Shown here: positions 1,886-61,753 of the stretch, piece after piece
Position numbering within the stretch: the stretch's first letter is position 1
How the letters are laid out: each line of letters opens with the position of its first letter
Origin: Raja brachyura
Taxonomy: Eukaryota
DNA: 64,000 nucleotides
Assembly (NCBI GenBank): GCA_963514005.1
Contig: OY740804.1
Location: forward strand, 18,476,001-18,540,000
Reading direction: 5' to 3'
Position numbers and translations under genes: made by a program
The notes under the pieces: generated by a model
What the model was told of the DNA's origin: nothing
The model's input: the letters and a program-made list of their open reading frames with translations, nothing else
Database searches by the model: none

Positions 1886-2024
1886 TGAATCGTCAGTATA
1901 TATGGCGCATTGTAATGTCTGAGAACGCATCCTTGAGTGTGTGGATTTGTGCGCGCGCATGCCTGTGTGTGTGTGTGTGTGTGCGTTTGTTTTACGACTT
2001 GGCACGGCATATCTTCGGAGTTAC

Positions 2025-2060
2025 CTGCATTCTTTAGAGCCACCCTCATCTTTTTCATTT
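2025..2060 (-). CDS. Micro-exon, 36 nt ([12 protein letters not shown])
   Basis: gcacgtttcag|AAATGAAA...AAGAATGCAG|gtaact. Confidence 0.85.
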
Positions 2061-5000
2061 CTGAAACGTGCATAATAATGAATATTTACGTTGCATTTCT
2101 CAGTTTAATATAACCTGAGGTGTAAGTACTGCAAGGTAGTATAATAGTTTGCTTATTATTCGACCAATCTTTTGTTTCCATGTTCGCCTCATAATGGGCT
2201 AGTTTGATATTGAACGTACAAACGGTTAAACAGCAAAATGGCTACCTGGATGAAGCAGGATCCCCTTAAGATTGTTAGTAATCTAATATCCTGTTCTCAC
2301 TTAACTCCCCGGAGGCATCTATGAACGTTTCGCACAACTGGCTCACAGGACATTTTTAGGGCGAATTATTGCTTCGCAAACCATTAGTTGTGACTTCGGG
2401 CATTTTTTGTTCTGAGTTACCAAACAGCATTTTGAGTTTGATAAAAATCAATGGATATGTAGAATTACATTTAAGCACAGACAATTTGTCATCAATCAAT
2501 TGACAAGAAACGTACAACTTTCTTGTCATTTAAACTCGCATGAAATTGCACAATAAAATTGTGTTTTCTAAATAAACAGTCATTTGTTAAGTTGTTCTAC
2601 ACGTACTCATGGTTTGCATTTCAATGTCGATGATGATATGATTATTCTTGTCAGCGGAACTTTCCCGAAATGTGTTTCCTTCACATCCACGACACTCTCA
2701 GTGTTTTATTTTTATTTTTCTGGACCCCGAAACCATGAGACTCCGTTGATTTCCCATTGGTCAAGCTGAAATTGCGCAGAACTGTTATAATTTCCAGATA
2801 TATATGTCAAATATGTTTCTGCCATAATGACCACAAAGTGTGGTGCCAAACCTTGATCTGTTGTTATTCCGTGTTGACTAATATATTCAAAACCCATACA
2901 CGCACAACGCACAATTCTTACGCGTCTTTCATATATACGGCATCTGAACAATGTCTGAACGCTGAGTCAGAAGAAGAAATTAAGATGTATTCGCCTTGCT
3001 CTGACTTACCTTCCCGGCAATGTTTTAAAAGTTCTCCTGTAAACAGGTTTTCAAAGAAAATGACACAGGATGAAAATCACGACACTTATTAGGAATGTGA
3101 GCTTGCGTATTGCTACCCGTGGTACTATGATCCTTCACGAAGCAAAATAAGTTTACAATGGGGTAGGAATTATCACATTGTGACTCAAATGTTTATGTTA
3201 TCGCGGGCTCCCCTTATTTGGTGATCGGAATGTAAACCAACTGACCACATCGTATATATCCACTCTGTCTCAAACAGCTTTTGTTAAATTGGACATTTTA
3301 CATCACAACTAAAGAATTACGTCGAAAGCGACGTGTACGTACACTGTCGAGACTGGGCAACATTATCGCGCGTTGCTGTTAAAATGTCCCCACACATTCA
3401 AATTAATGCTGCCATTAGATCGTGGGTAATTAGAAGAAGCGGCAGAAACCGCAGTTATGTCGCGTAAGTTCACAGGTGATATTACAGAAGCTGTACGTTT
3501 TTTGAAATAGCTCCAACGATAGATGGATTATTTCATCGAATTCTAACAATATCCGTTAGCTTTATCTCGTTTAATCTCCGTGCCAATACGTATATGTCGT
3601 AGTTGAGGACACGGAAATATTCAATCGGGCAAATCGCTCTCATCCCCACCTGCTTTTTTTAAAGCATGGGTCAGTTCTTCAATGTCTATGACGAAAAAAA
3701 CAATGAACAGCTGAATATCCCAATAACAACATGTTTTAAGTTGGCAGGAGCAGAAACAGAAGCAACATCGGTTACAGTTTGTTCTAATGGCGTACGTTTG
3801 AAATACAATTGGAGAATGAACAGATAACTGCCAATGATCAGTCCATGTGCAGGAAAGTACTCAAGATGCTGGTATAAGCCGAACACAAAAAGCTGGAGTA
3901 ACTCAGCTGGACAAGCAGTGTCTGTGGAGGAACGAATGGGTTACGTTTCCAGTCGAGACAAAGAAGGGTCTCGACACGAAACGTCACCCATTCATTCTCT
4001 CCAGAGATGCTGCTTGTCCCGCTGAGTTACTCGAGCTTTTTGTGCCTATCCATAAGTTCATCATTCACAATCACCGTGGTACACGACGCCTAGATTTCAC
4101 TCCGTTTCTGTTCGCACATAACAACCAGAGGTAAGCGTATTATGATACCGCTTTTGACTAAATACCGCTTTTCAGGGTGCATCCAAGAATTGTTTAAGAA
4201 CTCCAAACGGAAATAATTTTGCAGATTCCTAAACCGCTGGCCAAAAGGTAGCATGTATGAACTGTGCAAATTAGAAACGAACATACATAACCCTAACCTG
4301 GTAAGTGACCAGCCCCCAGCAAAATAAATATGATTTTGGCACTTGAGCCGGTTGTAACAGCTGCTGGTCACCAACTCACAACGAGATTATATTCCACGAG
4401 TCAAAGTCCACAGATCATATGCATGTACTTCGCCCTATTTAATGTTTAATCGGATCGGTCAAACCATTCAACGTTCGATGAAAATGAATCAATTTCTAGT
4501 TAATTTTCCGATAATCATATACTTATTAAAACTCTCGTGTTCGAACGTTCGTTCACATTCTAATTATCGATTATTCGTTTAAGGCGTTTGTGGATCTCCT
4601 CATCAGGTGGGCCTCATCAGGGACGACAATGAGCTGGCTTACAGGGAGGAGGTGAAACAACTGGTGGACTGGTGCAATGCGAACAACCTGATCCTGAATG
4701 TCGAAAAAACAAAGGAGGTTATCGTCGACTTCAGGAAAACCCGGCACAGTCCCATACCACTTCACATCAATGACATCGATGTGGAGGTGGTCAGTAGCAC
4801 AAAGTTCCTGGGGGTGCAGATCACGAACAGTCTGACCTGGTCGAATAACATCTCATCAACAGTTAAGAGAGCGCAGCAGCAGTTGCACTTTCTGCGCCGG
4901 ATGACAAGTGTTCACCTCCCCAATCCCATCCTCACTACTTTCTACAGGGGCACCATAGAGAGTATTCTGACCAGCTGTATCTCTGTCTGGTTTGGGGACT

Positions 5001-8000
5001 GTATCTCTGTCTGGTTTGGAGCCTCCGACTGGAAGTCTGTGCAGAGAGTGGTGAGGACAGCGCAAAAAATCATCGGGACCTCTCTCCCCTCAATCGGGGA
5101 TATTGCGACCAAACGCTGCGTGTCTAAGGCCAGCAGTATTATAAAAGACCCCACACATCTCCATCACGGACTGTTCACTCTGCTGCCCTCGGGAAAAAGA
5201 TATCGCAGCATAAGGAGCAGAACATCAAGGTTCTACAACAGCTGCTTCCCACGAGCCATCAGACTCCCGAATGCCATGTAATGGGCTGCCACCATTGTCT
5301 ATTTATCCTTTTATCCTTTTTATCCATTTTATCCATGTCTATCCTTCTGTTAATTTATCGTGTTGCACAGGGAACCAAATGCAAAGTAATTTCGTTTGGA
5401 ACTGCAAATATCAATGTATTTCTAAATGACAATAAAGTTTGTTTGACTTTGACTTGACTCCTCCAGAATTTGCTGTAACGGAGTATTTTTTACATATTCC
5501 TGTAGAGTTTTTCTCAAGACCGTGCTTTGAACATTTGAAAATTCGGTTAGTCATTTCCACGCTTTTTTCCTAAAAAACATTTAATACAATTTTAATCAAA
5601 CTGCGGCATGAGTCAGAGACACATCTCACAGATGTCCAATCACAATGGATCTCATTTACATATGACATCACAATGGGACAGGGGTGGGGGATTGCAACCT
5701 TCACGTTCAGGGGTGGGAGATTGCAACCTGCACGAATCTCCTCCCTCTCCTCCCTTCCTCGCTCACTCCATCTCTCCCTTCCGCTCTCCCTCTCCCTCTC
5801 TCCCTCTCTCCATCTCCCTCTCCCCTCTCTCTCACACCTCTCTCCTCCATCTCTCCACCCTCTCTCTCACCCTCTCTCTCCCCCTCTCTCCCCCTCTCTC
5901 CCCTCTCTCTCTCTCCCTATCTCCCCTTTCTCCCCCTCTCTCGCCCCCTCCCTCCCCTTCACTCTCCTCATCCCTCTCCCCCACCCTCTCCCTCTCTCCC
6001 CCTGTCCCTCTCTGCCCCTCTCCCTCTCCCCCCATTTCTCTCTCTCTCACGCTCTCCATCTTCCCCTCGCTCTCCCCCCTGTCTCTCTCTCCACCAGTGT
6101 CTTTCCCCCCGTGCCACTCTCCCCTCTCTCTCTCCCTCTTTCTCCACTCTCCCCCCTCTCTCTCTCTCCCTCCCATCTCTCTCCCCTCCCCCTCTCCCCC
6201 TCTCTCACCCCCCGCTCTATCTCACCCCCCACCCCCCCCCCCCCCACCCCCTCTCTCTCACCACCTCTCTCCCCCCCTCTCTCTCTCCTCTCTCTCTCTC
6301 TCCCCTCTCCCTCTCACTCTCTCTCTCCCCTCTCTCCCCTCTCTCTCCCTCTCTCCCATTTTCTCCCTCTCTCTCCACATCTCTCTCCCCCTCTACCTCT
6401 CTATCCCCCTCTCCCACACCTAGGCGTCCCCCCCTTCCCTCTCCCCTCTCCCCTCCCCCTATCCATCCCCCTCTCTTTCCCTTCCCCCTCTCCTCTCCCT
6501 CCCCAATCTCTCCCCATCTCCCCTTCCCTCTCGCCCCTTCCTCCTCTCTCCCCACCCCGTTTCTCTCTACCCCCTCTCGCCCCCTCTCTACCGCCCGCCC
6601 CATGCGTGGGTGGTGGTTAGTGTGCGTGTGAAGTCCCCTCCCCCCTGTAACGGCGTGTTGGGGGAACAGACCCAGCGGGTCTGCACTTGGTCTATTAATA
6701 ACTTAAAAATGTACCTGCTGATGTTTCAAGAATCTGACTTTCTGCCAATGGAGCGATTAAATAGACGATTAAATAGAATAAAACATTGAAATTATATACC
6801 GTCACTGAAGCATAACGTAAATATGTATTTATCTTCATATTTGTGGAATGGTTTTGTCTGCCACACGGCAATGATACAGTCGCTAAAGTAAAGATAATGC
6901 ATAAACTGCCATTAACCACCGCGAGGATGACTTTACAATAGTCGCAATCAAAATCCACGCGATATGTTCGGAGGGATATTTGCCAAACTCGGGCAGGTGG
7001 GACTGCCCAGAGTAGGCGAATGGATGACCAAAGGACATACGTTTCAGGTGAAGGAGAAAAGATTGAATAGGAATCTGGGGGGGGGGTGGGGGGGGGGGGG
7101 GGGGGTAACATCTTTAGACAAAGTGCGGTGGGTTTATGAAACAAACTGCCAGAGGAGGTAGTTGAGGCAGTGACTCTCTCAACATTTAAGAAGCAGTTAG
7201 ACAGTTACATGAATAGGCCAGATTTGGAGGAATATGGACCAAATCCTAGCAGGTGGAACTAGTGTAGCAGGAATATATTGGCCGGTGTGGGCAAGTTAGA
7301 CCGAAGGGCCTGTTTCCACACTGTATCACTCCATCCATCTGTGACTCTGTGATTTACTTATCACTTGATGATATGTTTACTTGAATATATGCTTGTTTCT
7401 TATATAATAGTGTAGCGTTTACATGATGTTGAAATAAATGGCACAATTAGTTAACTACAATACTCTAGCACGAGAGCAGTATATGTTATGGATTTAATAC
7501 TGGCTTGCAACACTTCCAGAACTGTCCCATTGTTCCTTGGTCTGAAGGCAGGTAAATCGTATGTTATAATCTATCGATCCACAGTTGGAATAGGAACTCA
7601 ATAGGAAAGAAGCAGAATAATTTGTTTGGACCGGTGGTGCTTGCATAATTTCATAGCGGAGAACGCATTCACCCACATTCACCCATTATTAGACTGGGGG
7701 ATGGGTCTCCACCAGCTAGACGGAGACCCATCCCCCAGTCTAATAATGTGTAATCCTGAAGCACATTCTCTCACACATAACAAAAAACATCGATCATTCT
7801 GCAAGGTCCTACGCTAAGGCATAATCTAAAGTTAGTTTCTGTCCCCAGTGGATTAGTGTAATAGATCAATTTATATGAAAATAAATATAGTTCGGACGCC
7901 AATCTAATTCAATCTAACATGGAAGAAAGGTCTCCAAATTGTCATTAAAATTTGATATAATAGGCAATCGTACTGGTTTAATCGATTCGGCAGTTTCCGT

Positions 8001-11000
8001 TCCATATCCACTCCCCAGGACAGCTCCACTGTCTCCCCTGCAGAAACATACAAGCGTTTACCGACCCGCCCTTCCCAAGCAAGTACGCTGCACTTCGTTG
8101 CGAAACACTCCACTTTGAAACAAAATAAGTATATCACCAATGTGTGTTCACACTGACATCCTATTTTATCCTCACCTTCGTCTTTGCAAATTCCTTTCTG
8201 TTCTAAATAAATAGGTTATAGTAACGTGAGTAATTAACGTTTACAATATTGGTATATTTTAATGCGATATGTTTAAATTCAGTTCGGTAACACGATTTTC
8301 TTACGTTAATGTCTGCTTTACTCTCGTCTACGAGTTGTTCATTGTATGTTTCTAAAACTATTCGGCTCAACATTACCAATAAATAGCATCTGCAAGCACA
8401 CACACATATACACACGTACGNNNNNNNNNNNNNNNNNNNNNNNNNNNNNNNNNNNNNNNNNNNNNNNNNNNNNNNNNNNNNNNNNNNNNNNNNNNNNNNN
8501 NNNNNNNNNNNNNNNNNNNNNNNNNNNNNNNNNNNNNNNNNNNNNNNNNNNNNNNNNNNNNNNNNNNNNNNNNNNNNNNNGATATATTAAAGACAGCGGG
8601 AGACATAGTATATTCTGTCGTATACCTGAGCTTGGTACGGATCAGTCAATACTACTAGTTTACCTATTGTTGGTGAATTTTCGCACAGTGTGGCACAGTG
8701 GTGCTAAAATTCTTCACGGTTACTTAATTGGCATGTTTCGGTTTTCTTGGGTGAAGTGGTGTTATTTTGTGATATATGCCGCTAACCATTCCTCGTTAAG
8801 ATGTTAATACTCACAATGTGGACATGATTAGATACTATGTCCTGATATGCTAAACGAGAGGCTGTCCCACCCGGCACGCGTTCTCATCCAGTCTTCGAAG
8901 TTGCCTCATTATAGCTTAGGGGACTTGATACGTTCAATATTAATTTAGCATCTTCACTGCTATGAACTCAAATCAACACATTTCTCCAAATGCCATTCAA
9001 TAATTAATTGTGCCACATACCTGCATCCTTAAGATAATTTCTTAGTTGTTCCACTTCTTTAAAAAAAATAATTTAATTAACATTGAATGACTTGATTCTT
9101 TTAATACTTATTGTTTTCGGCATTTGTACTGACTTCTCCCTTTTCTCCCATCGGCCGATCACAGCAACAGTCAATACCCCCACGATTCAGTGTCCATCTT
9201 TTTTGGCAACAAAGCACTTTTAATGCTAATAATCTCGACGATGGAATTGATCGCTTCGTGGCCATGTTTGTGGATTCTACAAAGACACGTGAAGAGGAGG
9301 ATAATTTTAAAGAAGCTGGTAGTTTGCAAAGGGAATTGGACAGGTTGGGAGCACGGGTAAAGAAGTGGCAAATTGAATACAGCGTTGTAAAGAGTACGGT
9401 CATATAGTTTGTTAAGAAGAAATAAAGACCATAAGACCATATGACCATGAGACCATATGACCAAAAGACCATGAAGCGCAATTAGGCTCCTTTTATTCCG
9501 AGTCCTCGTGCCCTAGAATCTCCTACTAATGAAAACATCATATTTACTCTTCCTGGGCCTTTCATTCTGCAGTACAAATCCTCAGCACCACCTGCCCTTC
9601 CACGTATCTTCGGTACGAAAAATTTAGAACACATCTCGACACTCTGAGAAAAGGATGTACTGAAGTTCGAGAGCGTCCAGAGGAGGTTTACATGAATGAT
9701 CTCTAGAGATGATTGGGTTGACGTATGAGGTGCGTTTGATTACGTTGATCCTGTGCTACGTGGCGGTTGAAAGGACATGGGGGGGATTTCAATTGACACC
9801 TATTATAAAAGGTCTGTAAAGAGTGGATGTGCAAGGGGTGCTCCTATCAGTGGTATAGTATAGGACCAGCAGAGCACGTTCACAGAATATTAGAGCGTGC
9901 CTTCATAATAGAGATGAAGTACATTTTATTTAGCTAGAGGGAGGTAAATCTGTGCAATTAATTATCACCTCCGGCTGTTGAGGTCATGTCATTTGGAGTT
10001 TTTTTCAAGTGATGTTTAACAACTTCTGGATTCGTATTTTAGTGTCAGGGCTTGTTATAAAAGTAACTAAACTATTATTATTTTCAATATTTATTTCAAC
10101 AGACATTTGATTACGAGCGCCCAGCACTGCTAGACATTATTGCTCATGGTTTATTTCCTGTAGCTAAATTTGTAGTGAATTCGCTTAGCAGTATTATGCG
10201 AAAGTATAAAACGTAAAATGCTCAATTAAAAATGGGACATAAACGAATATTCGTGGAAATATCCGAGTTGCTGATTTTCGACATAATTTCGCACTCTTAA
10301 CATCAATGTTTAAGACTGAACAAAATCAGCTAAAATTTGCGTCATATATCCATACAGGACGGAAGCAGGCTCTTCAGCCGACCAAAATTGTCCAAATAAG
10401 CTAGTCCCGTTTTCCCACGCTTGGGACAGATTCATCTAAACTTCCATTATCCGCTTACATGTCCAAGTAGCTTTAAAATAACGTGTCCCAACTACCATCT
10501 CTGGCATTTTGTTGCACATACCCGACACCCTCTCAGTGAAATGGATACCCCTTATTTTCCTATTGAATCCTCTTGCACCTCTTGTCCCACCTCAAACCTG
10601 TTAGTGATTACCATACCCTGGACGAAAAGTCAATCTGCATTCACCTTATGTATTGCCTTCATGATATTATACACAGCTATAACATCACCCCCTCAGCTCC
10701 TGACCTCAATTGAAGAAAACCCAAGTCAATCCAAATTGTCCCTATTGCTCAAGCTCGAGTCCTGGCAATATCCTCTCTCTAGATTAATCGGAACTACTAG
10801 ATATCGAGAAAAACATTATTTTTATGGATCTCCACATAATAAAAAACATTTTTTTATGGATCTCCACATATTGTATTTGGTATATTTCGCCGGAATATGT
10901 GAAAGTACATTGATAGTAATTTGAGGAATATATATGTCATATGTTACCTATCTTTTTCGCAAATAGTTCGGCATCTGCGTATTAAAAAAAACAAAGTCGT

Positions 11001-14000
11001 TCTTTCGTCTCATCTGTTTCCTCGTGTCATGTTATTGACAAACTTTGTAGTAATCTAAGTAAATTTGGATACATATAAGGCTGGCGTTTCCCCTGTCTCC
11101 ATCATGGGATATCGGTGACGCTGCGGGTGGAATTTCTGCCACTGGTGAATAGGTAGAACGTCGAAGTCGTCAATGCTTCTTTAGGCATCCACTGGATAAA
11201 TAGCCCCAGCGTGAAAACTAATTTAAGAATATATGTAATTGATTGGATAGCGAAGACAAATATTTGGGGATATTGGAGGGACGGGATCATTGTAAAACAG
11301 GTTTTTGATTGACATGCAATTTGGTGGCCGAATGTATGGATTATATACTGCTATTTTTTTGAAAAATCGCTTTCAGAAAATACTCATATCCCTGTCAGAC
11401 GAATAAATAATTTGCGTGTCGCTGGGGAAATGATGTAAACGTTTTACAGCATAACCAATTAGGCAGCTTTGAGAGACTTGTGCTTTACTGTGGTACCAGT
11501 GAATATTGTAACGACATACATGATTTGTCGTGCAGCACTTAACTGTAGCTTCCAACAGGGCAATAATACTATCGCTTCCAACATCAATTTTAAAAATATA
11601 TTTTCCAACTGTTCTATTCTGGAAAATAACGTGCTTGTTTGCGGTGACATTTAATCATTTCATATTTTTCACTTCTGAGTTTGTACACTTCACATATGTT
11701 TGTATCTGTCTGATATAATTACCCAATCAGGAACCATGATTACACATTTTGAATGTGAATTACTATTTATCGCTCTGAATTGTCTTAATGTTCTTTATGT
11801 TCAGTGGTATTGAGGAAAGTGTACAAAACTGAGCAAATAACTTTCGATTCGACGAAGCGTGAGTGATGCAGATAACCTGCTTGGTGGATCGTATGATGGT
11901 AAAGCGAAATTAAACGTCCAAAATACGTTACAGATTTATTCGTAAATGGAAAAGTGACCGTGCTGCATGATGATCATCAATAGTACAATGGTAGTAACTG
12001 AACTCCCTTTTCCAAGGGAATCCTATGCGTTACATATAACTGCACTCCTTCGTACATATCAGATTGATGTGAGGGTGGTGTGGGCGGGAAGAAGAAAGGA
12101 AGAGGCGGAGGCAGTGGGCTGTGGGAGAGCTGGGAAGGGGAGGGGAAAGAGGGAGAAAGCTTTCTCCCTCTTTCCCCTCCCTCTGTCTCCCTCTTTCCCC
12201 TTCACTTCCCAACTCTCCTACAGGCCACTGTCTCCGCCTCTTCCTTTCTTCTTCTCGCCCACACCACCCCCACATCAGTCTGAAAAAATGACTCGACAGA
12301 AACGTCACCTATTACTTCGTTGCATAGATGCTGCCTCACCCGCTGAGTTTCTCCAGCATGTTTATCTACCTTCGATTTTTCCAGCATCTTCAGTTCCTTC
12401 TTAAACATTCTATGTAACATTGTCTGTATGTATTATGTCTGTACCGTTAAGAGACTGAATAAATATAGCTGCTCGTTTCCATGTCATCCGTTTCCATAAG
12501 TGTATATCCAATAGTGTGATATCTCCCGAATAAATAAATTGGGCACACATTTGGTATGCAAATCGACTATAACAGAATAAATGAACAAAGAGTATTAATT
12601 TTCTGGCACGTTACATAGACTGAAACGATATATGTTCAGCATTGTCCATTGGTCAATAAACCTATGAATAAAATATATCTCAAGACGCACACTAAAGGTT
12701 TGGAAAAGTCAGTTAAATGCATGACAATGTAATTGCCGTGCATTTGAAGAGCACGGATGAATTATAGTAGTTGTTTGCTCTGTTTTAACTCGAATGTAGA
12801 ATATGAAATACGTTAGGGATAGTATAAGGTGCGAAGATCACAAAACAGAAGAAGATAATCAGCCTCAGAAGTACATAAACAATACACATTAAATAATAAG
12901 CAGGGGTACGTCAAATTTGAGCGTAAGTTAAAGAGAGGAGGTTGAAGGCTTCTAAAGATTTGTGTGTATAATAGCAAAAGGGAAATCAAATGTTATCACG
13001 AAGAGTCCGTAGCAGGGGAAATTATAATGAGGAAATAAAACAGTAGCAGACAAATTAAATCACGCAATGTTTCATAATGCACTAATTCGCATAAATAAGT
13101 AGTCCCTACTAGTGAATAAATGTTTAGTCAGGCATGGGGAGAACTGAAACTACTATTGGTTTGGAGATGGTGTTAGTTAAATTCGCAGGGTGGAAAGACG
13201 GTAAATCTCAGCAAATCGAAGAAAACACACATAATTAAATTTCAAATTTCAATAGCCAAATATGAAACGGGCAAGCAAACGATTCTGGGGTCTCTGTAAT
13301 TGGGGTTCAAATTTTAAAAATGGTTTACAATCGCTTCCTTGTGAATGTCAAAATGCAAATATTAGGCTGCCTTCGGAACGGTATTCTGATTAGATGTCGG
13401 TGATTACCATTGCGACGAAGCTGTTCTTCAAGTCCTATTAACATAAGCAGCGAAGTGTTAAACGTTCACGGCAAAAACATATAGGTTCAAAAACAAAGCA
13501 CAGAAAAAAGTCACAACCTACCTTCTTTACATAGTTGGAACTTCATCTCTGATGGAAATAACAGTGATCATATCAAGATCAATCGAAGATATTTATACTG
13601 CAATCGTTGCATTTCCGTAACTGTATCACATTGCATTAATTATACATATTTTAATCAATCATCCGGGATGTGTTATGGCGTTGCAAACATTACCACTTAT
13701 TGATCAATCGCATTTGTCGAATACATCGCCGTGAGAAACATTTTGAAACGCTGGAGAATTAATAGTAACCCTGCTTCTTCGCAGTACACTCGTGATGAAG
13801 TCTCGCAACTGCGCACTTTTCTACGTGCTTTGGAGATGGTCTTATCAGCAGACATATTTCACTGGATAGTATAAGGTGCGAAGATCACAAAACAGAAGAA
13901 GATAATCAGCCTCAGAAGTACATAAACAATACACATTAAATAATAAGCAGGGGTACGTCAAATTTGAGCGTAAGTTAAAGAGAGGAGGTTGAAGGCTTTA

Positions 14001-17000
14001 ACGTCAGCGATTCTGGATTAAAGATGTTTAAGAAAGAAATACAGATGCTGGAGAAATCGAAGGTAGACAAAAAAGCTGGAGACACTCAGCGGGTGAGACA
14101 ACGAATATGGAGCGAAGGAATAGGCGAAGTTTCAGGTCGAGACACTTCTTCAGACTGATGTCGGGAGGGGGGGGGGACTAAAGGAGAGGCGGAGACAGTA
14201 GGCTGTGGGAGAGCTGGGAAGGGGAGGGGAAAGGTGGGGAAATCAAGGCCTACCTGAAATTGGATGTTAATGTTCAAACCACTGGGGTGTAAACTACCCA
14301 AGCTAAATATGAGGTGCTGTTCCTCTTATTTGCGGAGGGCCCCACTCTGGCCATGGAGGAGGCCCAGGCCAGAAAGGTCGGATTCGGAATCGGAGGGGAA
14401 GTTAAAATACTGAGCCACCGGGAGATCGGGTTGGTTGTTGCTAACTGAGCGGAGGTGTTGGACGAAGCTGCTCACCGATGTAGAGCAGTTGACACCTGGA
14501 ACAGCGGATGCAGTGAATGAGGTTGGAGGAGGTGCAGGTGAACCTCTGCCTCACCTGGAAAGTCTGCTCGGGTCATTGGATGGAGTCGATGGGCGAATTA
14601 AAGCAAATTGCCGGGGGGGGTGATTTCGTTTGGAAGGAATGAATTGACCAGGGAGTTACGGAGGGAACGGTATCTGCGGAAAGCAGAAAGGGGAGGAGAC
14701 GGGAAGAAGTGGCCAGTGGTGGGATCCCGTTGGAGCTAGCGAGATTGTCGGAGGATTGTATGTTGTATGCGTCCCCTGGTATGGTGGAAGGTGAGAACAA
14801 GGGGAACTATGTCCTTGTTGCGAGTAGGGGGATGGGAAGTGAGAGCGAAGCTACGGGATATAGAGGAGACCCTCGTGAGTGCCTCGTCTATATTAGAATA
14901 CAGGAACCCCCGCTCGCTAGAAAATGAGGACATCTCCGATGCCCTGGTTTTGAACACCTCATCGTGGGTGCAGATGCGGTCGGTAGTCTGTTACCTGCGA
15001 TGGAGGAAAAGTTGTTGCGGGCAAGGACCCGCTCCGCTAGGCGGAGAAGAGAACTAGTAGACGGGGATTGCTCGATTCTGCGGTCGAGGAAGAAATGGAG
15101 GGCTTTCAGACCCTCCTGGTGGGAATGGATACGTATGGTGACTGGACATCCATAGTGAAGATGAGGGAGTGGGGCCTGGAAAACGAAAGTCGTGAAGGAG
15201 ACGAAGAGCGTGTGAGGTGTCTTGAACATAGGTAGGGAATGATTTGACCAGGGAGGATAGGATGGAGTCGATGTAATTGGAAATAAGTTCGGTGAGATAA
15301 GAACAAGCAGTAACAATGGGTCTGCCAGGACATTTTGTGGATTTTGGGGTGAAGATAAAATCGGGCCGTGCGGGGCTGGGGAAAGATGAGGTTGGAGGCT
15401 TGGGAGGGCATGGATACATAATATAAGTACAATAAGGCGAAAAGGGTAATCGCAGAATTCCTCATGAATCAAAGCGGCCATCACTGTGTGGAGCCACAAG
15501 AGATGGGAAATTCTTCATTTAGTATGTCTCCTCTATATTTACTGTGATGACAGACATGAGAACCGGGGAAACTTGAGGCAGTCAATTGAAGCGTATTGTG
15601 GACAGTTTGTATTACGGTAGACGAGGTTCTAAAGTCCTAATGCGCATGAAGAAAGACACATATCCCGGGCCCAACCAGATATATCTAAGCTGGTAAGCTA
15701 AAGGAGAAATTGCAGGTTCTCTGGCTGATGTATATGGTTCATCATTAACCACGGGTTAGAAAACGGAAGACCGGAGACTGGCAAATGTTGTGTCTCTATC
15801 TATGAAGTGCTGCAGCGAAACATAGAAACATAGAAACATAGAAAATAGGTGCAGGAGTAGGCCATTCGGCCCTTCGAGCCTGCACCGCCATTCAATGTGA
15901 TCATGGCTGATCATCCAACTCAGTATCCCGTACCTGCCTTCTCTCCATACCCCCTGATCCCTTTAGCCACAAGTGCCACATCTAATGCCCTCTTAAATAT
16001 AGCCAATGAACTGGCCTCAACTACCTTCTGTGGCAGAGAATTCCAGAGACTCACCACTCTCTGTGTAAAGAATGTTTTCCTCATTTCGGTCCTAAAGGAA
16101 TTCCCCCTTATCCTTAGACTGTGACCCCTTGTTCTGGACTCCCCCAACATCGGGAACAATCTTCCAGCATCTAGCTTGTCCAACCCCTTAAGAATTTTGT
16201 AGGTTTCTATAAGATCCCCCCTCAATCTTCTAAATTCCATCGAGTACAAACCGAGTCTATCCAATCTTTCCTCATATGAAAGTCCTGACATCCCAGGAAT
16301 CAGTCTGGTGAATCTTCTCTGTACCCCCTCTATGGCAAGGATGTCTTTCCTCAGATTTGGAGACCAAAACTGTACGCAGTACTCCAGGTGTGGCCTCACC
16401 AAAACCCTGTACAACTGGGGGAGCCTTGGGGGAAAATGGCTAATGAGTTTAACATCTAAGGGATCAGATGTTCATGCTGTTTAGTGAGACACCTACTGAG
16501 TAGCAATAGCCAGCACAGTTCTGCTTGTGGGAAATCGTGCCTCGCGAATCTGATGAGATTTTTGATGATGTGACCAAAAATAGAGATCGGGGTCAGAACT
16601 GTAGACGTTATACCTATTAATTTTAGTAAGGCATTTGACAAGGTTCCACAGGGTAGTGTCTCCGGGAGGATAGATCGCATGGAATCCAAGGAGAGCTAAT
16701 CAACAGGATAGAAACGTGGCTTCGCTGAATAAAGCAGCGTGTGATAGTGGAAGGTTCTTCGGACTTGAGGCATGTGGCTAGTGCTGTGGCTCAGGTGTCG
16801 GTGCTTGGCGTATCGCTGCGGGTCACCTGTATCAAGGATTTGGATGAGAACGTATCAGGCTTGATTTGTAAGCTCGCAGATGACATTAAAGTGGGTGGTG
16901 TTTAGATACCGAAAATGGTTTTCAAAAATTGATGGAGAACGTCGATTGGTTGGGTGGGTGTGCAAATGAATGGTTAACATAGTTTAATAAAGAAAAGTGT

Positions 17001-44000: not shown

Positions 44001-47000
44001 ATTTCGACCGCCCCGACGTGGGCGTTTCGATCGCCCCAACGCGGGAACTTCGATCGCTCAGATGCGGGGGCTTCGACCGCCAGCTGCGGGGGCTTCGATC
44101 GCCCCGACGGATGGTTCGACTGCGCCGACCCCAGGAAAATAAAGAGGAAGAAGATTGTACTTTTTTGCCTTCCATCACAGTTAGGAATGTGGGGAATACG
44201 CTGTGGTGGATGTTTATGTTTACTTTTATGTAGTTGGGTGTCTTGTTGCTTTTTTCGCATGGCTGTGCGGTAATACCCATATCACTGTACCTGTGACAAT
44301 AAATGACCATTGAAATCTTTGACAGTTTTGAACCATGCACGTTCTATCAAATTAACGAGTCTAAAATCCCTCATTAGATCCATTTTGGGGCATGGAATTG
44401 GCCGGAACTGACACCATAGATGGACAATAGACAATAGGTGCAGGAGTAGGCCATTCGGCAGTTGGAGCCAGCATCGCCATTCAATGTGATCATGGCTGAT
44501 CATCCGCAGTCAGTACCCGGTTCCTGCCTTCTCCCCATATCCGCTGACTCCGTTATCATTAAAAGCCCTATCTATCTGGAAAGTATCCAGATGGTTATTA
44601 AAAAAACACGGATCACGAAATTAACAGTGTCAACTATTTTATAAAAAAGATAGAACTACAAGGCAAAAGATCCTCGTGGATCTTAGTTAATGACTCTAGC
44701 TCAGCTGACATTCAACCATGTTCACGTCTAGATAACACAAACCGCAAATCTGTTAACATATCAAAGGTGTTTCAGAAAAGTCAAGTAACTCCGTTTATAA
44801 AATAATTGTTGCAGACTCACCCAAGATTAAAATGCACGCGATCCATCAAATTTTGGATATTTCTGTTCAGAACTATCTTCTCCATAGAAGCACAAGGATT
44901 GCAGTGGCAGTGTGTTATTTTTGCCGAGGTCTATGAAAGGCAGATGGAGATGGAGCCGAGCAAGTGAGCGCTGTTGCACTTATAGAAATGTAATGTATGG
45001 AGAAAATGTATACTTAATGGACTTCAACGCACTGATGTACAGAGGGACGTTGGGGATCACGACCATAATTCCTTGAAAGTGACAACGCAAATAAATAGTT
45101 GTAAATACCGCATATCGCAAATCTGAATTCAAGCATATCGTATGTTTGAATCATTGGTCGGCACATTGCGTATCATAATCAGGATGTCATGTTGCAGCTT
45201 TTCCACCGTTCTATATTCTATATTAGTAGCACTGACTATATATGCTGCATTGTGAAAAGGATATACAAGCATTTTGAATATTATGTTCACCTTTATCTTT
45301 ATTTGATTTTTCTGCTTCTAAATTAAAGGGGGGAAATGAAATCGTTTCAAACAAGTGATTACACAGCCAAACACGATTTTTTTATAGTGGCATTTCAAAG
45401 GCACATTTCAACGTGAAATATGGTTTGTAGGCGAGTTCATCGGTTTCGTCGGAGCTTTGCTAATCATAGGTCCAATATGACATCATAACATCACGTTGGA
45501 TGACATCAAAGTAAAAAATAGTTGTCCAAAATGCTGTATGTTATAGGCTGCATGGATATCCTTTGCATTTGCAAACCGAAGCGGAATGGATTCACACAGC
45601 TATCGTAGTGAAGAATGTCATATTTCCATTAATTATGAGTTTGGCTCTTTAAGTATCCCATCTAGAGATTGGGACTTTAGCACAAGAAGGTGCCCTGCAT
45701 CTATTTTCAACTCTAGCTATCGGGATATTTCAATGTGTATATATGATATGTTTTAATTAATGAAAAACAAACTATTCGTGTTCCAACCTCATGTAAAGAA
45801 AATGTTCTGATCTTCATCTAAAGCAGGCGAGTACTGAGCCATTATTGTTTACAGTAATGTTTCACACCTTACCCTTCCTTATCTCTATGTCTCCCTCGCC
45901 CCTGACTCTCAGTATGAAGAAACATCTCCCGAAACGTCAACCATTCCTTCTCTCAAGAGATGATGCCTGTCCGGCTCGGTAACTACAGCATTTTGTGCCT
46001 TCGGTGTAAACCAACATTCGCAGTTCCTTCCCACACGAGGATATGATCATTCTCGTCAGCCTGCCTCCAGTCCATGCCTACTCTCTGCATATCCAAGTGT
46101 CGATCCAACTGCTCCTTAAAAGCCACTATCCTATCCTCGTCCACCACAACACCTAGCAGCCTGAAGCAGGCAATCATTATCGTCTGTGTTAAAAGTGTGC
46201 CCCACAAATGTTTTCTAATCTTTGCCTCTCTCACCTTAAATTTCCACATTACGTCAATATTAACTATAACATTAAACACCGTTCAATGGAAAGATTGAAG
46301 TATATCCCACCAATCCCTCACCGGCATTTTTAATTTGTTCCATGGCGTTTCCCAATTCTGAAATAGAATAACAAGAGAGTAAACATTTCTTCAGTTGTAT
46401 GTGGAGTAATTGGTCAGATTGTCTCCAGCGCCACGTATTGTGACGTTGCGTATAGGAAGATAGTGGCCAAGTGAATCTTTAGATGAGGAGATGGTATTGG
46501 CGTCAGAGATTCAGCATTTATTTTTACCATTGGGATTTATTCTGGGGTAAGGGCGATTTGCAGAAAATGGACACATTGTACCTGAATTGGAACGAGCCAA
46601 ATTCCTGTCGGGTCTGTTAACTCGAGCTACTTCGGAGAGCTAAAACTTGTAAAAGAGGGTTGAGAGCAAATACAGTAGTCAGTCAGTAGGAAGGCCAGAT
46701 ATCAGTTTCAGCGAGTCAGTCGACAGGATATGCGGAGGCCCGGCAGGGACTGAAGAATGATAGTTTGATGATTTATTTCAATGTTAGAGGTCTGACAAAT
46801 ATGGTGATGAACCCGGGCCTCGATAGAAACGTACGACTGAGATTTGCGGTTAGAAGAAGCTGGCTAAACTGGAATTGAACTGACATATCAAATTCTCATG
46901 GGAGAGCATCTACTTACGAGATGGGGGTGTGGGTAAAATCGAAAGGGAATTGTATTATTATTTAAGGAGATTTTCACGGCAATAGTTCGAGATGACATGA

Positions 47001-50000
47001 CTGTGGGTTCATACAGTACGGTCGACGAATAAAAAGGGATTGTCATCTTGTTGTAATTACATTATAGGCCACCGAATAGTCAACGGGAAATTGAGAAAGA
47101 TTACATAGAACTGCAATAGGTTGGCATATTATGGATTTTTATTTGTCCCAATATAGATTGTGACTATCGGTGTGTGACAGCCAAAGACATTTGTTAAGCG
47201 CGTCCAATAAGGTTGACCCAAACAATATGTAGTGGGCGTTACAGAGGAAGCGAAATGTTTGAACAATAAGGGAAGTGGGCAGGGGAAGTTACTGAAAATT
47301 CTACGGGCCTGCCTTATTGGACCTGCAGGCACAGGCCTGTTTCAAATCGATGCGAAGTCAAATGTAATGGTACTCGATAGCAACTTGCTACATAGATTAG
47401 TGTAGGTTGTTTCCGGCCAATGGAACGTCCCAATGTTGGATATCAATAAAAGTCTAATGATGAGTGTACAAATAATACGTGTTCCAGTTAGACTGACGGA
47501 AAATGTACGTCGGATTCGGTAACCCTGGATGCCGAGAGAAATGAAGGCTTTCGTCAGGATAAGACAGTCGGGTTCACGTGAATGGCTGGTTGGATATAGG
47601 GGATAGGGGAGCAGACGAAAGTGAATTAAGTGGGCTTGAGCCTGGAATCGAGTAGGCAAAAGCTGGGAATGGTCTATTGGCAGAATCAATGAAGGCACAA
47701 TGGCTTGCGTTGTAGGAAGAGGTCGGGCAGGCTTGCACACAAGGCTAGCGTGTGACCTAATATCTGTGTTGTAATTCATGAGGTGAATCGATATGTTAAA
47801 GACAGCGAGTCTTTATCACGGGTTTGGGGAATCAAAAACTATAGACGCATGTTTAATATTGAGAGAGGCTAGATTTAATAGGATACTTGGGAATATGTAA
47901 TTGAAAAATGGACAAGTGCATCGATAGGAATCTTTTCAGTGAACTGGTCCGAACGCGGCAATTGTGGGGGGGGTCTATATTGGGATCTAGGTCGGCATAG
48001 GCGAATCATGCCGAAAGTCATCTTTCCTTCATGCACGATTCTGTGACGCTATGATTAATGGCACCCACTGATCGGTTGTTTCAACTTCAAATAATAAATT
48101 GATCTCGCTTTGCGGTCCTGAAAATTGTTATTTGGGATGTTTCGTCTGTCCCTGTTCTTTGATGTGCCTGTTGTTATTAATCTCAGTCTACGGGTCGCTG
48201 GAATAATTCCTCACCAACTGCATTCCTGAACTTGGGCATTTTTCAATTATTTGTTTTCCAATGTCAACGTAATTCTGCTCATAGGAACACAACCCATGCG
48301 GACGGCCGTAAGGCACTGTGCACGTATATTAATCGCACCTGCGAAAACTGGGCATTTCCAAAACATGGAAACAAATTCGATTTATATTTTTGCTTTTGTT
48401 AAAGGCCGCATGTGTCTTCCGCGTTGTTACCGAGACGGCAAAAAAAAACATTTGCTGAATCATAGAGTTAGGGGAATTTCCATAAAGCGCAGTTGAGATG
48501 TAAGAGATGTATCAATTACTGTTTCAGATGGTCCCAGTCACCTTTTCGATCCTTTGAAGGCGACGTAATTTCTTCTCTCCCTATTCGGATGACCTTTCCG
48601 TCGTTGTATTTTATTTGGGTTGAGCGTCTCGAGTATTAGCCAAGTCGCATAATCAGCAGAGTCGTAAAATCAGAGATGCATTAGGTTCTTAGAGGCATAG
48701 AGTTACATAATACCGAAACAAGACCTTCGGCCTAACTCGTTCAAGCCGCGCAAGGCGCCAATCAGGACTAGTCCCATGTGTACGCATATGTTCCATATCG
48801 CTCATGGAACCCACCTCCGGGAACAAGACTAGGTATGAATCCATCTGTGCGCTTCGTGATATTATACACACAGAAAGATCACCCCTCAGCAACCTACTCT
48901 GGCCTGTCCAACCTCTTTCCATGGCTCTGGTACTCGAGTACCGGCAACATCCTCATAAATATTCCATACAATATTTCTAACTTAATGCATATTTCACATG
49001 GCTTGCTTCTAAACAGTGACCTCGTCATTTTGAAGGACAAATGCAACCTCATGCCCTAACTGCGAAATCCGATGGCCGTACTGTTGAGGCATGGGTAACA
49101 CCGTCTTCGCCATCTTGTGAACATGCGACGCCTCTTTCAATAAACTATGTATTCCTGCGTCCCTCTATTCGAGAGTACTCCATGTACTCCTGGGTCCCTC
49201 TATTCGACAGCACTCACCAGGTATCTGCCCAAAACTGTGGAAGCTTTGATTACCCTCTCCACTGTTCCACTCTTTCCGACACTACGCATTGTTGCGCCCT
49301 CCGAAAACAAACTAACCGCTCTTTTCATGTAAAAAAGCGGAAATAGATGATACTCACAATGGGCCCAGCACTGACCCCTCAAGCGCACCACTGTTCATGA
49401 GGCTCAGGTGCGAAAAACCCTTCACCCTATATTTCCTGCCACTGAGTCAAGTATGTGTCTAATTATGTTGTTCGCTCTGGATTCCGTGTGATCTATATTT
49501 CCTGTGTAAGTTACAATGTCCAATCTTTTCAATAGTTTTGCTGGAATCATGCGTCAATCGTCCTCATCAGATTTGTCGGCCACGTCAACATTACAAGATA
49601 ACATTCGTGAAAAACTAGCTGCAAGGAGCTGTGCTGCCGACTCCAAATATACCTATGCGTTTCAATATTCATTTGTCCCTTTCTCTTCAAGTCCCATCCA
49701 ATAACGTACCGAGCACAATTGTCAGGCTTAATGCTCTGTAGTTTCGATTGGTTTTCTTTACAGCACCTCTTAAATAGAGGCATAACATTATCTACCCTGC
49801 AGTCTTCAGAAATTGCACCAGTACTACGCAGTGATGTACAGCCAGGGGCCCCCATGGTATGATATACCTTGCCAGGTCTCCGAGATTGAGCAGTCATTTT
49901 AAGCTGTCCAGTACTTCGAGCACAATTCGATATACTCCGACGACATCAATAGTAGCATCCCCCAAGTGTCCTTGTCTTCCTGTTTGAAGACGTATGGACA

Positions 50001-53000
50001 TTCCAAACAGAGCCGGAATTTTCATTGCTAATCTCCCGCGGCTCTAAAAGTATATATCAACATTCGTCTTTGAGGGGTCCTATTCTATCCCTCGTCATCA
50101 TTTTCTTTAATATACTTTTGAAACCTTGGACTTTCCTGAACCTTGTTGCCAAGAATCTTTCATGTCCCCTATTTCTTTCGGAATATGTCCCATCCTTTCA
50201 CACCTGCTATAATTCACTTGACCCCTCCTGCTTTTAATTAATCCATGTCTCCTTCTTTTCTCTAACCAATGAGATATCTTGACATCCAAGCTTCCTTCTA
50301 CTACCGATCTATCCCTTAGCTCGAACAGAAAGAATGTAGATTGTGAACCTTCGCTATCTCACTTTTAAAATCCTCCCACGGTGGACCGCCGTTCGCCCGC
50401 AAACAACTTTAAAAATGTAACCCTATCCACTTTTGCAAACACCTTTCTAAGTCCATCCACATTTCCCTTGCGCTCCTCCAATGCCCATTGATGCTGATGC
50501 GATGTCCGCAATCCCTACCAGGTGACCATCCCATTATCATGTCTCATGTCTGTCCACAAGTTCTCACTGGATGATCCCTCGGTAACATCATCTCGGAACA
50601 CAGCCGTGATGTTGGAAAAAACATGTACTCTCGCTTCATCGCTATTTCGTCTATCGCACGTGTACCATGAACAGTTTTGGTATGAATCCTGTCCCTCCTT
50701 CATCCATGCTTGCATAATATCTATAATATTCCGTGCTATGAACCTATCCATGCCACAATTTCACACGCCTCCACTGGATGACACATTGCATTGATAAAAG
50801 ATGCTATTAAATACAACGGCCCTTTCTGAGTCACTTCCTGCTCCGTTCAGCTTGTTTATAATCCCAGACCCCGCCAATCTATTTTAAAACATCCTTTGTA
50901 ACTCTGTCACATCTACAGGATATTGGTCAACCTCCTGTTCGGAAGCAACCGATCCTTCTTGTGCAGGTCACATCTGCCTAAAATGAAATACCAGTGGACC
51001 AGAAATATGAATCCTTGCCGACCGCACGAACAGTTCAGCCACGTAACCATTTGTTCCGTACGACTCTTCCAGCCGTCACAACCACGTGATTCTGATAATA
51101 ATCCTTAACTACCAAAAGGTCCTGGTTTTCACATTTTTGCCTTACTCTCAATATTCACATAATTTACCCTTTTCTACATATGTAATTTGTGCCAATGTGC
51201 AGGTCATCTCTGGCTGCTCAACCAGCCCTAGGGGAATATCCTGCGTACCTGGAATCAGGAAACAAATACGCATCTCGCTATTCCGTTTGTGACCACAGAT
51301 CTCTTCTTTGCAACCCGAATTATCGAATCACCTGTCACTATGTATCTGTCTGTCTCTACCAGTTCCCGCTGTGCCTTTGCGCCGGCGTTGCTGCCGCGGG
51401 TGCAGCTGCAGCTGGTTGATCCGAAACTGCGATCAGTATCAACAACGACATACATGATTTTATGGGGAATGGCCACAAAGGAATTCCTGCCTATTCCTTT
51501 AGCTTGTGGTAACTCGGCTATTATTGCCTGGACCATAGACGTGATCGCCTCGCCATAATTCCGGCCTCTAATGCTACTGCGTGCGTTCATCTCCAGATGC
51601 AGTACCGTCATCCCTTCAGTGAGAAGATACACCTAGTAATACTTCTCGTATGAGTAGTCATTGCGGACATTGAAAGATTCAGATGGCGCACGTTCATGAG
51701 ATTTAACTTCCCAATGCGTCGTTGCACTAAGCAGTACCTCTAATAGCACTATAGAATTGTAAAAAGGATTGTCAACAAACAAATCTCGACAATAATCATT
51801 ACACATATCTAAGTAATTAATTTACCCGCAGTTTTCTTCGCCAATTCGCATTCTGTTTAGGAAAGTTAATAACCAGAAATATTTCAGTTACTGTTCAACT
51901 TGCTATGGGATATATAAAATTATTTAAATCGCTTTCGAAAATAAAATCGGCATTTCAAAGTGATGCTCGTGCATGCAGTTTTATGTATTAGTTTGTTTGA
52001 GAGCTGCATTGAAAGTATTGAAAATAGAGTGCGAGAGAAAAAAGTGTCAAAAATTCCGATTCAAATTGCATGAATGAATTTGTTGTTATCTGCCGTGGGC
52101 GTTATTTGGGACAAGTTTGGACACTTCACAGATTTATGATCCAGGTGATGTTGATCTCCTTCCTCCATACACACGACGTTTAATGAAGTTGTGCTTGTTT
52201 ATACCATTGAACCACAATAAAAGTAAGCATAACTGTGTTACCGTTTACAAAGTNNNNNNNNNNNNNNNNNNNNNNNNNNNNNNNNNNNNNNNNNNNNNNN
52301 NNNNNNNNNNNNNNNNNNNNNNNNNNNNNNNNNNNNNNNNNNNNNNNNNNNNNNNNNNNNNNNNNNNNNNNNNNNNNNNNNNNNNNNNNNNNNNNNTGTG
52401 TGTGTGGCTGCGTGCGTGGAGGGGCGTCAATGGAATGTATCTTCCGCCCGTCTTAAAAGTGGATCTTTAAAAAAGACTTCAGTGGCTATCAAGAATATGC
52501 ATATTCCACACAACCAGTTTGTTTGTTTTAAGACCTTGTGCCAAATAACGCCCACAGCAGATAACAACAAATTCATTCGGGAGAAATATATTCCCCCTCG
52601 CTAGTTAACTATGAAAGCTTTCTAGGTTAAATCGAACATTCGGAAAATCTAATGGCGTTAAAGCTGAGGTACGATCTTCGGCAATATTTTTCCTTTCTTC
52701 CACTTTCAATATTGGAATTTGACATCGTTTATTGTCTCGCTGATTCACTCTTCCTCCTCACCCAATATTTACTTATTTTGTGCGGCAGTCTCGTATCCCT
52801 CGTTGTCAGGCAACTGAACCATCGAACCAACAACTAGAGGCGGCCCTGAACTATTATCTACCTCATTGGAGACCCTCGGATTAATTCTAAACGGACTTTA
52901 CTGGCTTTATCAAGCACTAAACGTTGTTCGCGGCTCTCTCTTTATCATGTAACTGTACACGATGCATGGCTTGACTGTAATCATGCATTGTCTTCCCGCT

Positions 53001-61753: not shown

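What the first reader, a model, noticed from the sequence alone, without database searches (positions are those of the whole stretch)
2025..61753. Hidden 60-kb micro-exon array that builds a coiled coil from 9- and 12-residue exon modules
Seen in the sequence: at least 25 minus-strand exons, almost all exactly 27 or 36 nt, all phase 1-1, with plausible splice sites and no stops. They make up about 1.3% of the span and the ORF track misses them. The 36-nt exons share (E/D)-h-x-x-h-x-x-x-(L/I)-x-x-(A/S/T), and most 27-nt exons have a hydrophobic residue at position 4. A 36+27 pair therefore puts core residues at 2,5,9,12,16,19 of 21 aa, a continuous 3-4 heptad. Established knowledge: heptad-coding small exons occur in chicken BG and butyrophilin tails and in TSBP1/C6orf10 (21-nt exons), and the CD23 stalk uses 63-nt exons. 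I do not know of a vertebrate gene built from a 36+27 split. Inference: a lineage-specific modular coiled-coil gene that automated annotation would likely miss.
Basis: partly seen in the sequence, partly recalled or inferred. Interest (0 to 1): 0.92.

Follow-up and report, generated by a model that had tools for sequence, protein, structure and literature searches.

The report
Megabase micro-exon coiled-coil B30.2 gene
The tiny 27- and 36-base exons are real and lie inside a 930,000-base array of more than 150 such exons in a skate genome that ends at a B30.2 binding-domain exon, likely one giant gene for a long rod-shaped cytoplasmic protein of a shark-and-ray family that databases hold only as short, misnamed pieces.

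Summary
Observation confirmed. The window has 21 stop-free 27/36-nt minus-strand exon candidates, against 3 on the plus strand and 1.9 in shuffles. It covers 7% of a 930-kb array: 154 catalogued phase-1 micro-exons (4 in the plus-strand control) ending at one B30.2/SPRY exon 766 kb downstream. A RefSeq little-skate model joins the last 11 exons to that domain. Exon order preserves 3.5-residue periodicity, but core position 19 is mostly K/R, not hydrophobic. Four paralogues share the design. The one traced to its start begins directly in the coil, with no signal, Ig, transmembrane or RING exon. Their B30.2 domains form one clade with shark, ray and chimaera proteins. Best reading: a soluble rod of at least 1,600 residues with a B30.2 head, like a free butyrophilin/BG tail, grown by 36+27 duplication. 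Not shown: expression, this gene's 5' end, and that the window's exons splice to that B30.2 (about 65%). This scan already found the design in two shark genomes. Ten paper searches listed no description. New variant of a known kind.

The parts
1..64000 (-). the whole window lies inside the array. Outside it: the 5' part up to about G000:C24:18,640,100 (start codon not located); the 3' part down to C24:17,725,855 (124 catalogued exons plus at least 4 more); and the terminal B30.2 exon at C24:17,709,235-17,709,755 (phase-1 acceptor, 172 codons plus stop, AATAAA downstream)
   Evidence: (PF00622, E 5.4e-17)
61712..61753 (-). 42-nt phase 1-1 exon
   Evidence: splice scores 5.4/5.3
60481..60504 (-). 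24-nt phase 1-1 exon, weak candidate
   Evidence: scores 3.5/1.0
59800..59829 (-). 30-nt phase 1-1 exon
   Evidence: scores 3.1/1.9
58241..58267 (-). 27-nt exon (a second acceptor would give 21 nt)
54037..54066 (-). probable 36-nt-type exon; acceptor and 30 nt visible, the rest lies in N
51826..51852 (-). 27-nt exon
46322..46357 (-). 36-nt exon
45291..45317 (-). 27-nt exon
42499..42534 (-). 36-nt exon
41102..41128 (-). 27-nt exon, first of a pair with a 132-nt intron
40943..40969 (-). 27-nt exon, second of that pair
36341..36367 (-). 27-nt exon
35734..35769 (-). 36-nt exon
34677..34703 (-). 27-nt exon
29552..29587 (-). 36-nt exon
29242..29268 (-). 27-nt exon, weak candidate
   Evidence: scores 0.1/1.6
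19017..19052 (-). 36-nt exon
13522..13548 (-). 27-nt exon with Cys at position 7, first of a pair with an 87-nt intron
13408..13434 (-). 27-nt exon, second of that pair
10948..10974 (-). 27-nt exon
9021..9056 (-). 36-nt exon
8176..8202 (-). 27-nt exon
6715..6741 (-). 27-nt exon
3650..3685 (-). 36-nt exon
3010..3036 (-). 27-nt exon
2025..2060 (-). 36-nt exon

Best explanation
The window is a middle section of a 930-kb array of phase-1 micro-exons in a skate that are likely spliced into one transcript ending in the B30.2 exon, predicted to encode a soluble cytoplasmic coiled-coil rod of at least 1,600 residues with a ligand-binding B30.2 head. Shown: the exons, their phase, their 36/27 alternation, the 3.5-residue periodicity, the single family B30.2 exon at the end of the array, and four paralogous arrays. 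In paralogue g5, an ATG exon leads straight into the coil, and recent tandem copies of a 36+27 unit of about 820 bp sit there with their introns. Inferred: a 36+27 pair gives three heptads, with a positions (2, 9, 16) L/I/V/M, d positions L (5), mixed (12) and K/R (19). Two chains would wind as a parallel coil of about 235 nm or more (0.148 nm per residue, recalled), loosened at every third d layer. The rod would hold two B30.2 heads at a distance from whatever it binds, as a scaffold or tether on cytoskeleton or membranes, in the way the free BG tail (zipper protein) acts on actin-myosin. Because every exon is a multiple of 3 nt and phase 1-1, skipping or duplicating any of them keeps the frame, so rod length would be tuned by splicing and by tandem duplication.
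For: Excess of 27/36-nt exons in nearly every 20-kb bin from +164 kb to -750 kb on minus only. 77 and 65 strong candidates against 7 and 7 on plus. Largest gap between catalogued exons is 27 kb. tblastn with 162 B30.2 proteins finds one minus-strand B30.2 in 1.26 Mb, at the array's end. Little-skate XP_055510696 matches the last 11 exons in order at 75-100% identity and continues into the B30.2. Power at period 3.5 is 0.47, against 0.26 +/- 0.03 (max 0.33) in 30 exon-order shuffles. Highest 19-residue hydropathy of the catalogued exons is 0.5, and N-glycosylation motifs number 12 against 8.3 shuffled, p = 0.13. g5 start: ATG with in-frame upstream stops, then exons matching the N-terminus of Narcine XP_069775384. 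Catshark XP_038671249 is a 945-aa model with about 770 aa of coil and SPRY as its only Pfam domain. g5 duplicates are 80% identical over 1.8 kb. RefSeq isoforms of relatives differ by short in-frame blocks, 4 of 13 exactly 9 aa.
Against: No model joins the window's exons to the B30.2. The little-skate model covers only the last 67 kb and starts in intron sequence. On C25 a similar same-strand array carries two separate Narcine models in tandem. The start of this gene was not found, and one hydrophobic 76-nt exon candidate at +166.7 kb remains. Of the coding changes in the B30.2 exon, 2 of 2 in run X3 and 5 of 8 in run X5 alter the residue, so constraint is modest.
Confidence: 0.55

Rival explanations
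1. The 930-kb array is two or more tandem same-strand genes. The window's exons belong to a coil-only gene that is not joined to the B30.2 exon.
For: On C25 the plus-strand array (29.81-31.33 Mb) has one family B30.2, yet Narcine golgin-like and A33-like models map on it one after the other. The catshark homologue of the first has its own B30.2, for which the skate shows no counterpart. Exon character changes in blocks along the array, for example Cys at position 7 in 8 of 24 27-nt exons between +60 and -130 kb.
Against: No gap over 27 kb, no second B30.2 inside, and uniform phase. Block structure also follows from segmental duplication inside one gene. The Narcine models may be fragments.
Confidence: 0.25
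2. It is a membrane-anchored butyrophilin/BG-like receptor, or a type II membrane protein, whose 5' exons were missed.
For: The nearest solved B30.2 is BTN3A1 (E 3.7e-33, ahead of TRIM58 at 3.9e-26). Small heptad repeats before a B30.2 are the butyrophilin tail design (PMC4046983, passages). A hydrophobic 76-nt phase 0-1 candidate lies at +166,763 to +166,688. Two paralogues lie on the contig that carries MHC class I-like genes.
Against: Only 28 kb lie between the stop of the upstream NLR gene and the first micro-exon. No Ig hit there or anywhere in 1.26 Mb from 19 proteins bearing an IgV-like motif or from motif and ORF scans. The 76-nt candidate's donor lies at the edge of a LINE fragment (LINE recognised from recall). 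g5 starts directly in the coil. Seven RefSeq models of relatives have no Ig domain.
Confidence: 0.08
3. It is a RING-less TRIM derivative acting as an innate sensor, or as a decoy that pairs with TRIM proteins.
For: Coil plus B30.2 is the C-terminal half of a TRIM. C25 holds most of the 150 listed SPRY exons. The B30.2 changes fairly fast: 91% identity to the P0004 domain, whose 90% cluster holds the little-skate model, and mostly residue-changing differences. The family clade sits in an unresolved fork among mostly RING-bearing proteins.
Against: TRIM coils are short, antiparallel and mix 7- and 11-residue repeats on a few larger exons (recalled). Here the period is 3.5 over at least 1,600 residues on micro-exons. 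No RING or B-box exon from 51 RING-bearing queries.
Confidence: 0.1
4. The array is a decaying, silent relic or a set of chance pseudo-exons.
For: Introns carry many LINE fragments, and most coding differences in the B30.2 exon alter the residue.
Against: 138 of 142 strong candidates are open in one frame, although 36-nt exons share only 43% and 27-nt exons 41% of bases on average. The B30.2 exon has no indel in two other runs while 5 indel rows fall in its flanks, and 2 differences in 521 nt against 21 in 680 in X3, p = 0.0004 (X5: 8 against 22, p = 0.065).
Confidence: 0.02

Closest known systems
Butyrophilins (BTN/BTNL; human BTN3A1)
   Same: Heptad repeats followed by a terminal B30.2 domain. 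BTN3A1 is the best match among solved structures, by sequence.
   Different: BTNs have Ig domains, a transmembrane segment and only a few heptads (PMC4046983, PMC5938342, passages). Here no Ig or transmembrane exon was found, there are more than 150 exons, and the array spans about 0.9 Mb.
Chicken BG proteins and the soluble zipper protein
   Same: A long coiled coil written in many small exons whose number varies. The soluble tail regulates actin-myosin (PMC4046983, passages).
   Different: BG uses 13-36 exons of 21 (sometimes 24) nt, one heptad each, behind IgV and a transmembrane segment, and its tail is contrasted with the B30.2-ended BTN tail. Here the unit is 36+27 nt (three heptads) and a B30.2 ends the array.
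Guinea-pig enterophilins
   Same: Soluble long leucine zipper plus B30.2 (recalled; the paper was not held). Enterophilin-1 binds sorting nexin 1 (PMC13749957, table row and reference).
   Different: Up to about 45 heptads (recalled) against more than 200 here. Homology and exon layout were not tested, and independent origin is likely.
Class IV TRIM proteins (TRIM21, TRIM39, TRIM58, TRIM69, A33)
   Same: Coiled coil plus B30.2. RefSeq names the relatives after them.
   Different: No RING or B-box, a far longer coil, a micro-exon layout, and a separate B30.2 clade.
RefSeq chondrichthyan models XP_055510696, XP_038671249, XP_069775384, XP_042191566, XP_078422387
   Same: Same B30.2 clade (XP_055510696, XP_069775384 and XP_042191566 were represented by cluster or isoform partners). 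The little-skate model is the orthologue's 3' end.
   Different: 175-945 aa automatic models under unrelated names; none shows the megabase array.

Membership tests
Butyrophilin (BTN/BTNL) | Signal peptide plus IgV (and IgC) ectodomain | tested here: not met
   No tblastn hit from 19 IgV-motif proteins in 1.26 Mb or in 60-70 kb beside each of three other paralogue B30.2 exons; none around the g5 start; g5 begins in the coil; no Ig Pfam hit in 7 models.
Butyrophilin (BTN/BTNL) | Single transmembrane segment before the heptads | tested here: inconclusive
   Absent from catalogued exons (max hydropathy 0.5), from g5 and from nine family models (max 1.5). One doubtful hydrophobic exon candidate upstream of this gene.
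Butyrophilin (BTN/BTNL) | Heptad repeats followed by B30.2 | tested here: met
   the number of heptads far exceeds BTN.
Chicken BG | IgV, transmembrane segment, 21-nt one-heptad exons | tested here: not met
   21-nt candidates are at background (5 on minus, 10 on plus); no IgV.
TRIM (RBCC-B30.2) | RING and B-box before the coil | tested here: not met
   No RING or B-box hit from 51 RING-bearing proteins; none in RefSeq models.
TRIM (RBCC-B30.2) | Coiled coil plus B30.2 | tested here: met
Enterophilin | Soluble leucine zipper plus B30.2 (recalled) | tested here: met
   Architecture met for g5, inferred for this gene.
Enterophilin | Sequence orthology and enterocyte expression | not tested
   No enterophilin sequence or primary paper was obtained.
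Fish NLR-B30.2 | NACHT-LRR fused to B30.2 | tested here: not met
   The upstream NLR's last LRR-cap exon has its own stop at about +193.4 kb.
CD23/CLEC4-type lectin receptors | Neck ending in a C-type lectin domain | tested here: not met
   0 of 42 Lectin_C matches on C24 (150 of 204 candidates scored); the array ends at a SPRY exon.
Any of the above | Dimer formation, ligand, tissue | not testable with these tools

The most novel reading that the evidence does not exclude
Cartilaginous fishes carry an undescribed, ancient family of megabase genes, each spelling a rod of up to 2,000 or more residues in 200 or more freely skippable and duplicable 9- and 12-residue exons and capping it with a B30.2 head. 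It would be a splice-adjustable molecular ruler, and a surviving free form of the module that became the butyrophilin/BG cytoplasmic tail.
Probability: 0.35. Interest if true: 0.85.

Novelty: new variant of a known kind. Interest (0 to 1): 0.66.

Why it matters
The five arrays cover roughly 4 Mb of this skate genome and are nearly invisible to annotation. They would rank among the most exon-rich vertebrate genes and give a natural test of how hundreds of 27-36-nt exons are recognised across multi-kilobase introns. They also test whether a coiled coil grows by whole three-heptad units. The family appears in a chimaera, sharks and rays, and two members lie on the contig with MHC class I-like genes and the TRIM cluster, so it bears on where the butyrophilin/BG tail came from. 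The parts (heptad micro-exons, B30.2) are known; the scale, the 36+27 unit and the apparent lack of a membrane anchor are new.

Tried and rejected
RNA: no RNA holder listed for window 1-10000, which says nothing on expression. Laying three DNA runs on window 1-14000 was swamped by repeats and gave no per-exon conservation. No database search could be made with the window's own exons, each being shorter than the search minimum, so annotated orthologues of this middle part remain unsearched. Fusion to the upstream NLR: rejected, it has its own stop. C-type lectin end: rejected. The hydrophobic N-terminus of the little-skate model is not a signal peptide; it is read from the intron before an exon. 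Start exon of this gene: 30 candidate rows, none convincing. A DNA search with the g5 start region found only itself and repeats. 27-nt exons are not simple truncations of 36-nt exons (29-35% identity at four offsets). A 27-nt pseudo-exon at the 3' end of a LINE recurs and was removed by repeat masking. Papers: 0 hits; two listings each, unrelated by title and abstract start; one search listed 3 passing mentions of enterophilin; one search listed 6 BG papers. The library lacks most subscription journals, and supplements were not opened.

Full report
1. The observation. The window is G000:C24:18,476,001-18,540,000 of a 2.7-Gb genome. A splice-site scan over lengths 12-120 gave 16 candidates of 27 nt and 9 of 36 nt on the minus strand, 2 and 2 on the plus strand, and about 2 for other lengths. 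Stop-free 27/36-nt candidates number 21 on minus, 3 on plus and 1.9 +/- 1.7 (max 9) in 100 local dinucleotide shuffles. A curated set of 25 exons covers 762 nt (1.28%) and reads 253 aa without a stop; two are weak. The splice matrices were my own approximations from recall, applied alike to both strands.

2. The array is far larger than the window. The excess continues upstream to about +164 kb and downstream to -750 kb (window coordinates). Over 936 kb, repeat-masked candidates with strong sites number 77 (27 nt) and 65 (36 nt) on minus, 7 and 7 on plus, and about 5 for other lengths. 138 of the 142 are open in the phase-1 frame, against 53 and 63 in the others. A model trained with each 100-kb block left out kept 135 minus and 1 plus candidate. 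The relaxed catalogue holds 154 exons (83 of 27 nt, 66 of 36 nt, 5 others; about 1,586 codons) against 4 on plus, with a median gap of 4.4 kb and a largest gap of 27 kb. Read straight through, it has one stop, at a junction codon, which points to a false or missing exon. The catalogue is incomplete: it holds 7 of the 11 exons shown by the little-skate model and 18 of my 25 window exons, so 210-240 exons is a fair estimate (inference).

3. The 3' end. Sixteen kb after the last micro-exon lies a phase-1 terminal exon of 172 codons with downstream AATAAA (C24:17,709,235-17,709,755). It is a SPRY/B30.2 domain (PF00622, E 5.4e-17) and the only minus-strand B30.2 in 1.26 Mb. A protein 91% identical to it clusters with Leucoraja erinacea XP_055510696, named TRIM69-like, so the genome is a skate (inference). 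That 295-aa model matches the last 11 micro-exons in order at 75-100% identity and runs on into the B30.2. Its first 17 residues come from intron sequence, so it is cut short at the 5' end. I could not see whether it rests on RNA, though kilobase-spaced 24-36-nt exons are hard to predict without it (inference). In two other DNA runs the exon has no indel while 5 indel rows fall in the flanks. Differences are 2 in 521 against 21 in 680 (X3, p = 0.0004) and 8 against 22 (X5, p = 0.065). Flank counts are totals minus listed coding rows, and one row was not shown. However, 2 of 2 and 5 of 8 coding changes alter the residue.

4. The 5' end. Upstream on the same strand is an NLR gene (NACHT; phase-2 LRR exons) with its own stop, so it is separate. 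In the 28 kb before the first micro-exon and in the whole region, 162 B30.2-bearing proteins (19 with an IgV-like motif, 51 with a RING motif, labels by regular expression) hit only B30.2 exons, one micro-exon and mobile-element pieces. One hydrophobic 76-nt exon candidate at +166.7 kb has its donor at the edge of a LINE fragment. The start of this gene is unresolved.

5. A family. Four more B30.2 exons stand well above the TRIM background, and each ends an array of 27/36-nt exons. Sampling 10-kb stretches every 60-90 kb puts g3 (C24, minus) at 1.0 Mb or more, g2 (C24, plus, tail to tail with this gene) at 0.56 Mb or more, and the C25 plus-strand array at about 1.5 Mb. g5 (C25, minus) spans 134 kb and was read in full: 43 catalogued micro-exons, preceded by a 27-nt exon and an exon whose ATG has in-frame stops just upstream. 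These first exons match the N-terminus of Narcine XP_069775384, so g5 has no signal, Ig, transmembrane or RING part. g5 also shows the growth step: a unit of about 820 bp with one 36-nt and one 27-nt exon, tandemly copied at 80% identity. In the window's gene the copies are old (mean 41-43% identity; one pair alike beyond that). Relatives are annotated in Narcine, two catsharks, basking shark and Callorhinchus as TRIM39/58-like, A33-like, golgin-like or uncharacterised. The 13 family B30.2 rows form one branch (SH-aLRT 100) among 81 rows. The tree is a quick one with a midpoint root; unlabelled proteins and isoform duplicates were left out, and the sister group is unresolved. An ESM Atlas search with the catshark protein lists chordate clusters of 1,277-1,802 aa with PRY/SPRY and no Ig or RING family shown, under unrelated names; this is a lead that long forms sit unrecognised in databases. 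MHC class I-like exons lie on C25 at 18-24 Mb.

6. The coil. 36 and 27 alternate in 101 of 148 steps (shuffled mean 73.5; none of 10,000 shuffles as high). Counting the split codon as position 1, L/I/V/M/F fill position 2 in 92%, 5 in 76% (plus 11% Cys), 9 in 86% and 12 in 35% of 66 exons. They fill position 16 in 70% and 19 in 7% (59% K/R) of 83 exons. The a layer is thus hydrophobic throughout, and every third d layer is charged. Power at period 3.5 is 0.47, against 0.26 +/- 0.03 when exon order is shuffled 30 times, so order matters. In the window's part a larger unit recurs: seven pairs of 27-nt exons with 87-146-nt introns between +41 and -99 kb, in a block where Cys is the commonest residue at position 7 (8 of 24). 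RefSeq isoforms of relatives differ by in-frame blocks of 6-16 aa, 4 of 13 exactly 9 aa (some longer indels were split by the aligner).

7. How it likely works. Shown: exons, phase, order, periodicity, the terminal domain and a paralogue's bare N-terminus. Inferred: one transcript (about 65%), a soluble dimeric rod of 235 nm or more, paired B30.2 heads as the binding end, and length set by exon skipping and duplication. I favour a cytoplasmic scaffold or tether, by analogy with the soluble BG tail that regulates actin-myosin (PMC4046983 and PMC5938342, passages only) and with enterophilin-1, a sorting-nexin partner (PMC13749957, table row and reference; its architecture is recalled). The chief rival is that the array is several tandem genes: on C25 two Narcine models map one behind the other on a same-strand array with one B30.2.

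8. What is known. It works like a detached butyrophilin/BG tail but fails membership of BTN, BG, TRIM, NLR-B30.2 and lectin receptors on tested features. Ten searches of the open library listed no paper on this family; subscription journals and supplements were not seen. After my reading was formed, the scan's index showed two reports of the same design in shark genomes; these are unchecked AI notes and not independent support.

9. Verdict. A real feature, much larger than reported. New variant of a known kind; interest 0.66.

Noticed in passing
L015:851-5730 and L014:9430-9517 (window +193 to +200 kb, minus): Intact-looking NLR gene (NACHT, NOD2_WH, HD2, six phase-2 LRR exons, terminal exon with stop), one of 95 NACHT matches listed for this genome.
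   Followed up: partly
G000:C25:29.61-31.33 Mb and C24:15.71-17.67 Mb: The four paralogues sit as two head-to-head pairs on different contigs; the window's gene is tail to tail with g2, 38 kb apart.
   Followed up: partly
G000:C25:30.98-31.15 Mb: Coil exons matching catshark XP_038671249 and Narcine golgin-like models, but no skate counterpart of the catshark protein's B30.2; possible loss of the head in batoids.
   Followed up: partly
G000:C25:18-42 Mb: Very large SPRY/TRIM cluster with MHC class I-like, NLR and single-exon C-type lectin genes.
   Followed up: no
window 4583-5281 (+), 15920-16471 (-), 55161-56768 (+): Broken LINE reverse-transcriptase fragments in introns (recognised from recall). 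One LINE end yields a recurring false 27-nt exon, for example at 15960-15934.
   Followed up: partly
window +136,260 to +138,317 (-) and -174 kb, -580 kb: DIRS-like retroelement reading frames inside the array's introns, up to 686 aa (class recalled).
   Followed up: no
L122-L123, C24:15,723,272 and 15,720,329: Two identical copies of a 27-nt exon 2.9 kb apart in g3: a very recent duplication or an assembly duplicate.
   Followed up: no
whole window: CpG is only mildly depleted: 42-90 per 2 kb at 42% G+C, roughly three quarters of expectation.
   Followed up: no
window 5740-6560: About 800-bp CT-rich microsatellite tract.
   Followed up: no
window +245,776 to +245,926 (-): Fragment resembling the last helix of a GPCR (resemblance recalled).
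   Followed up: no
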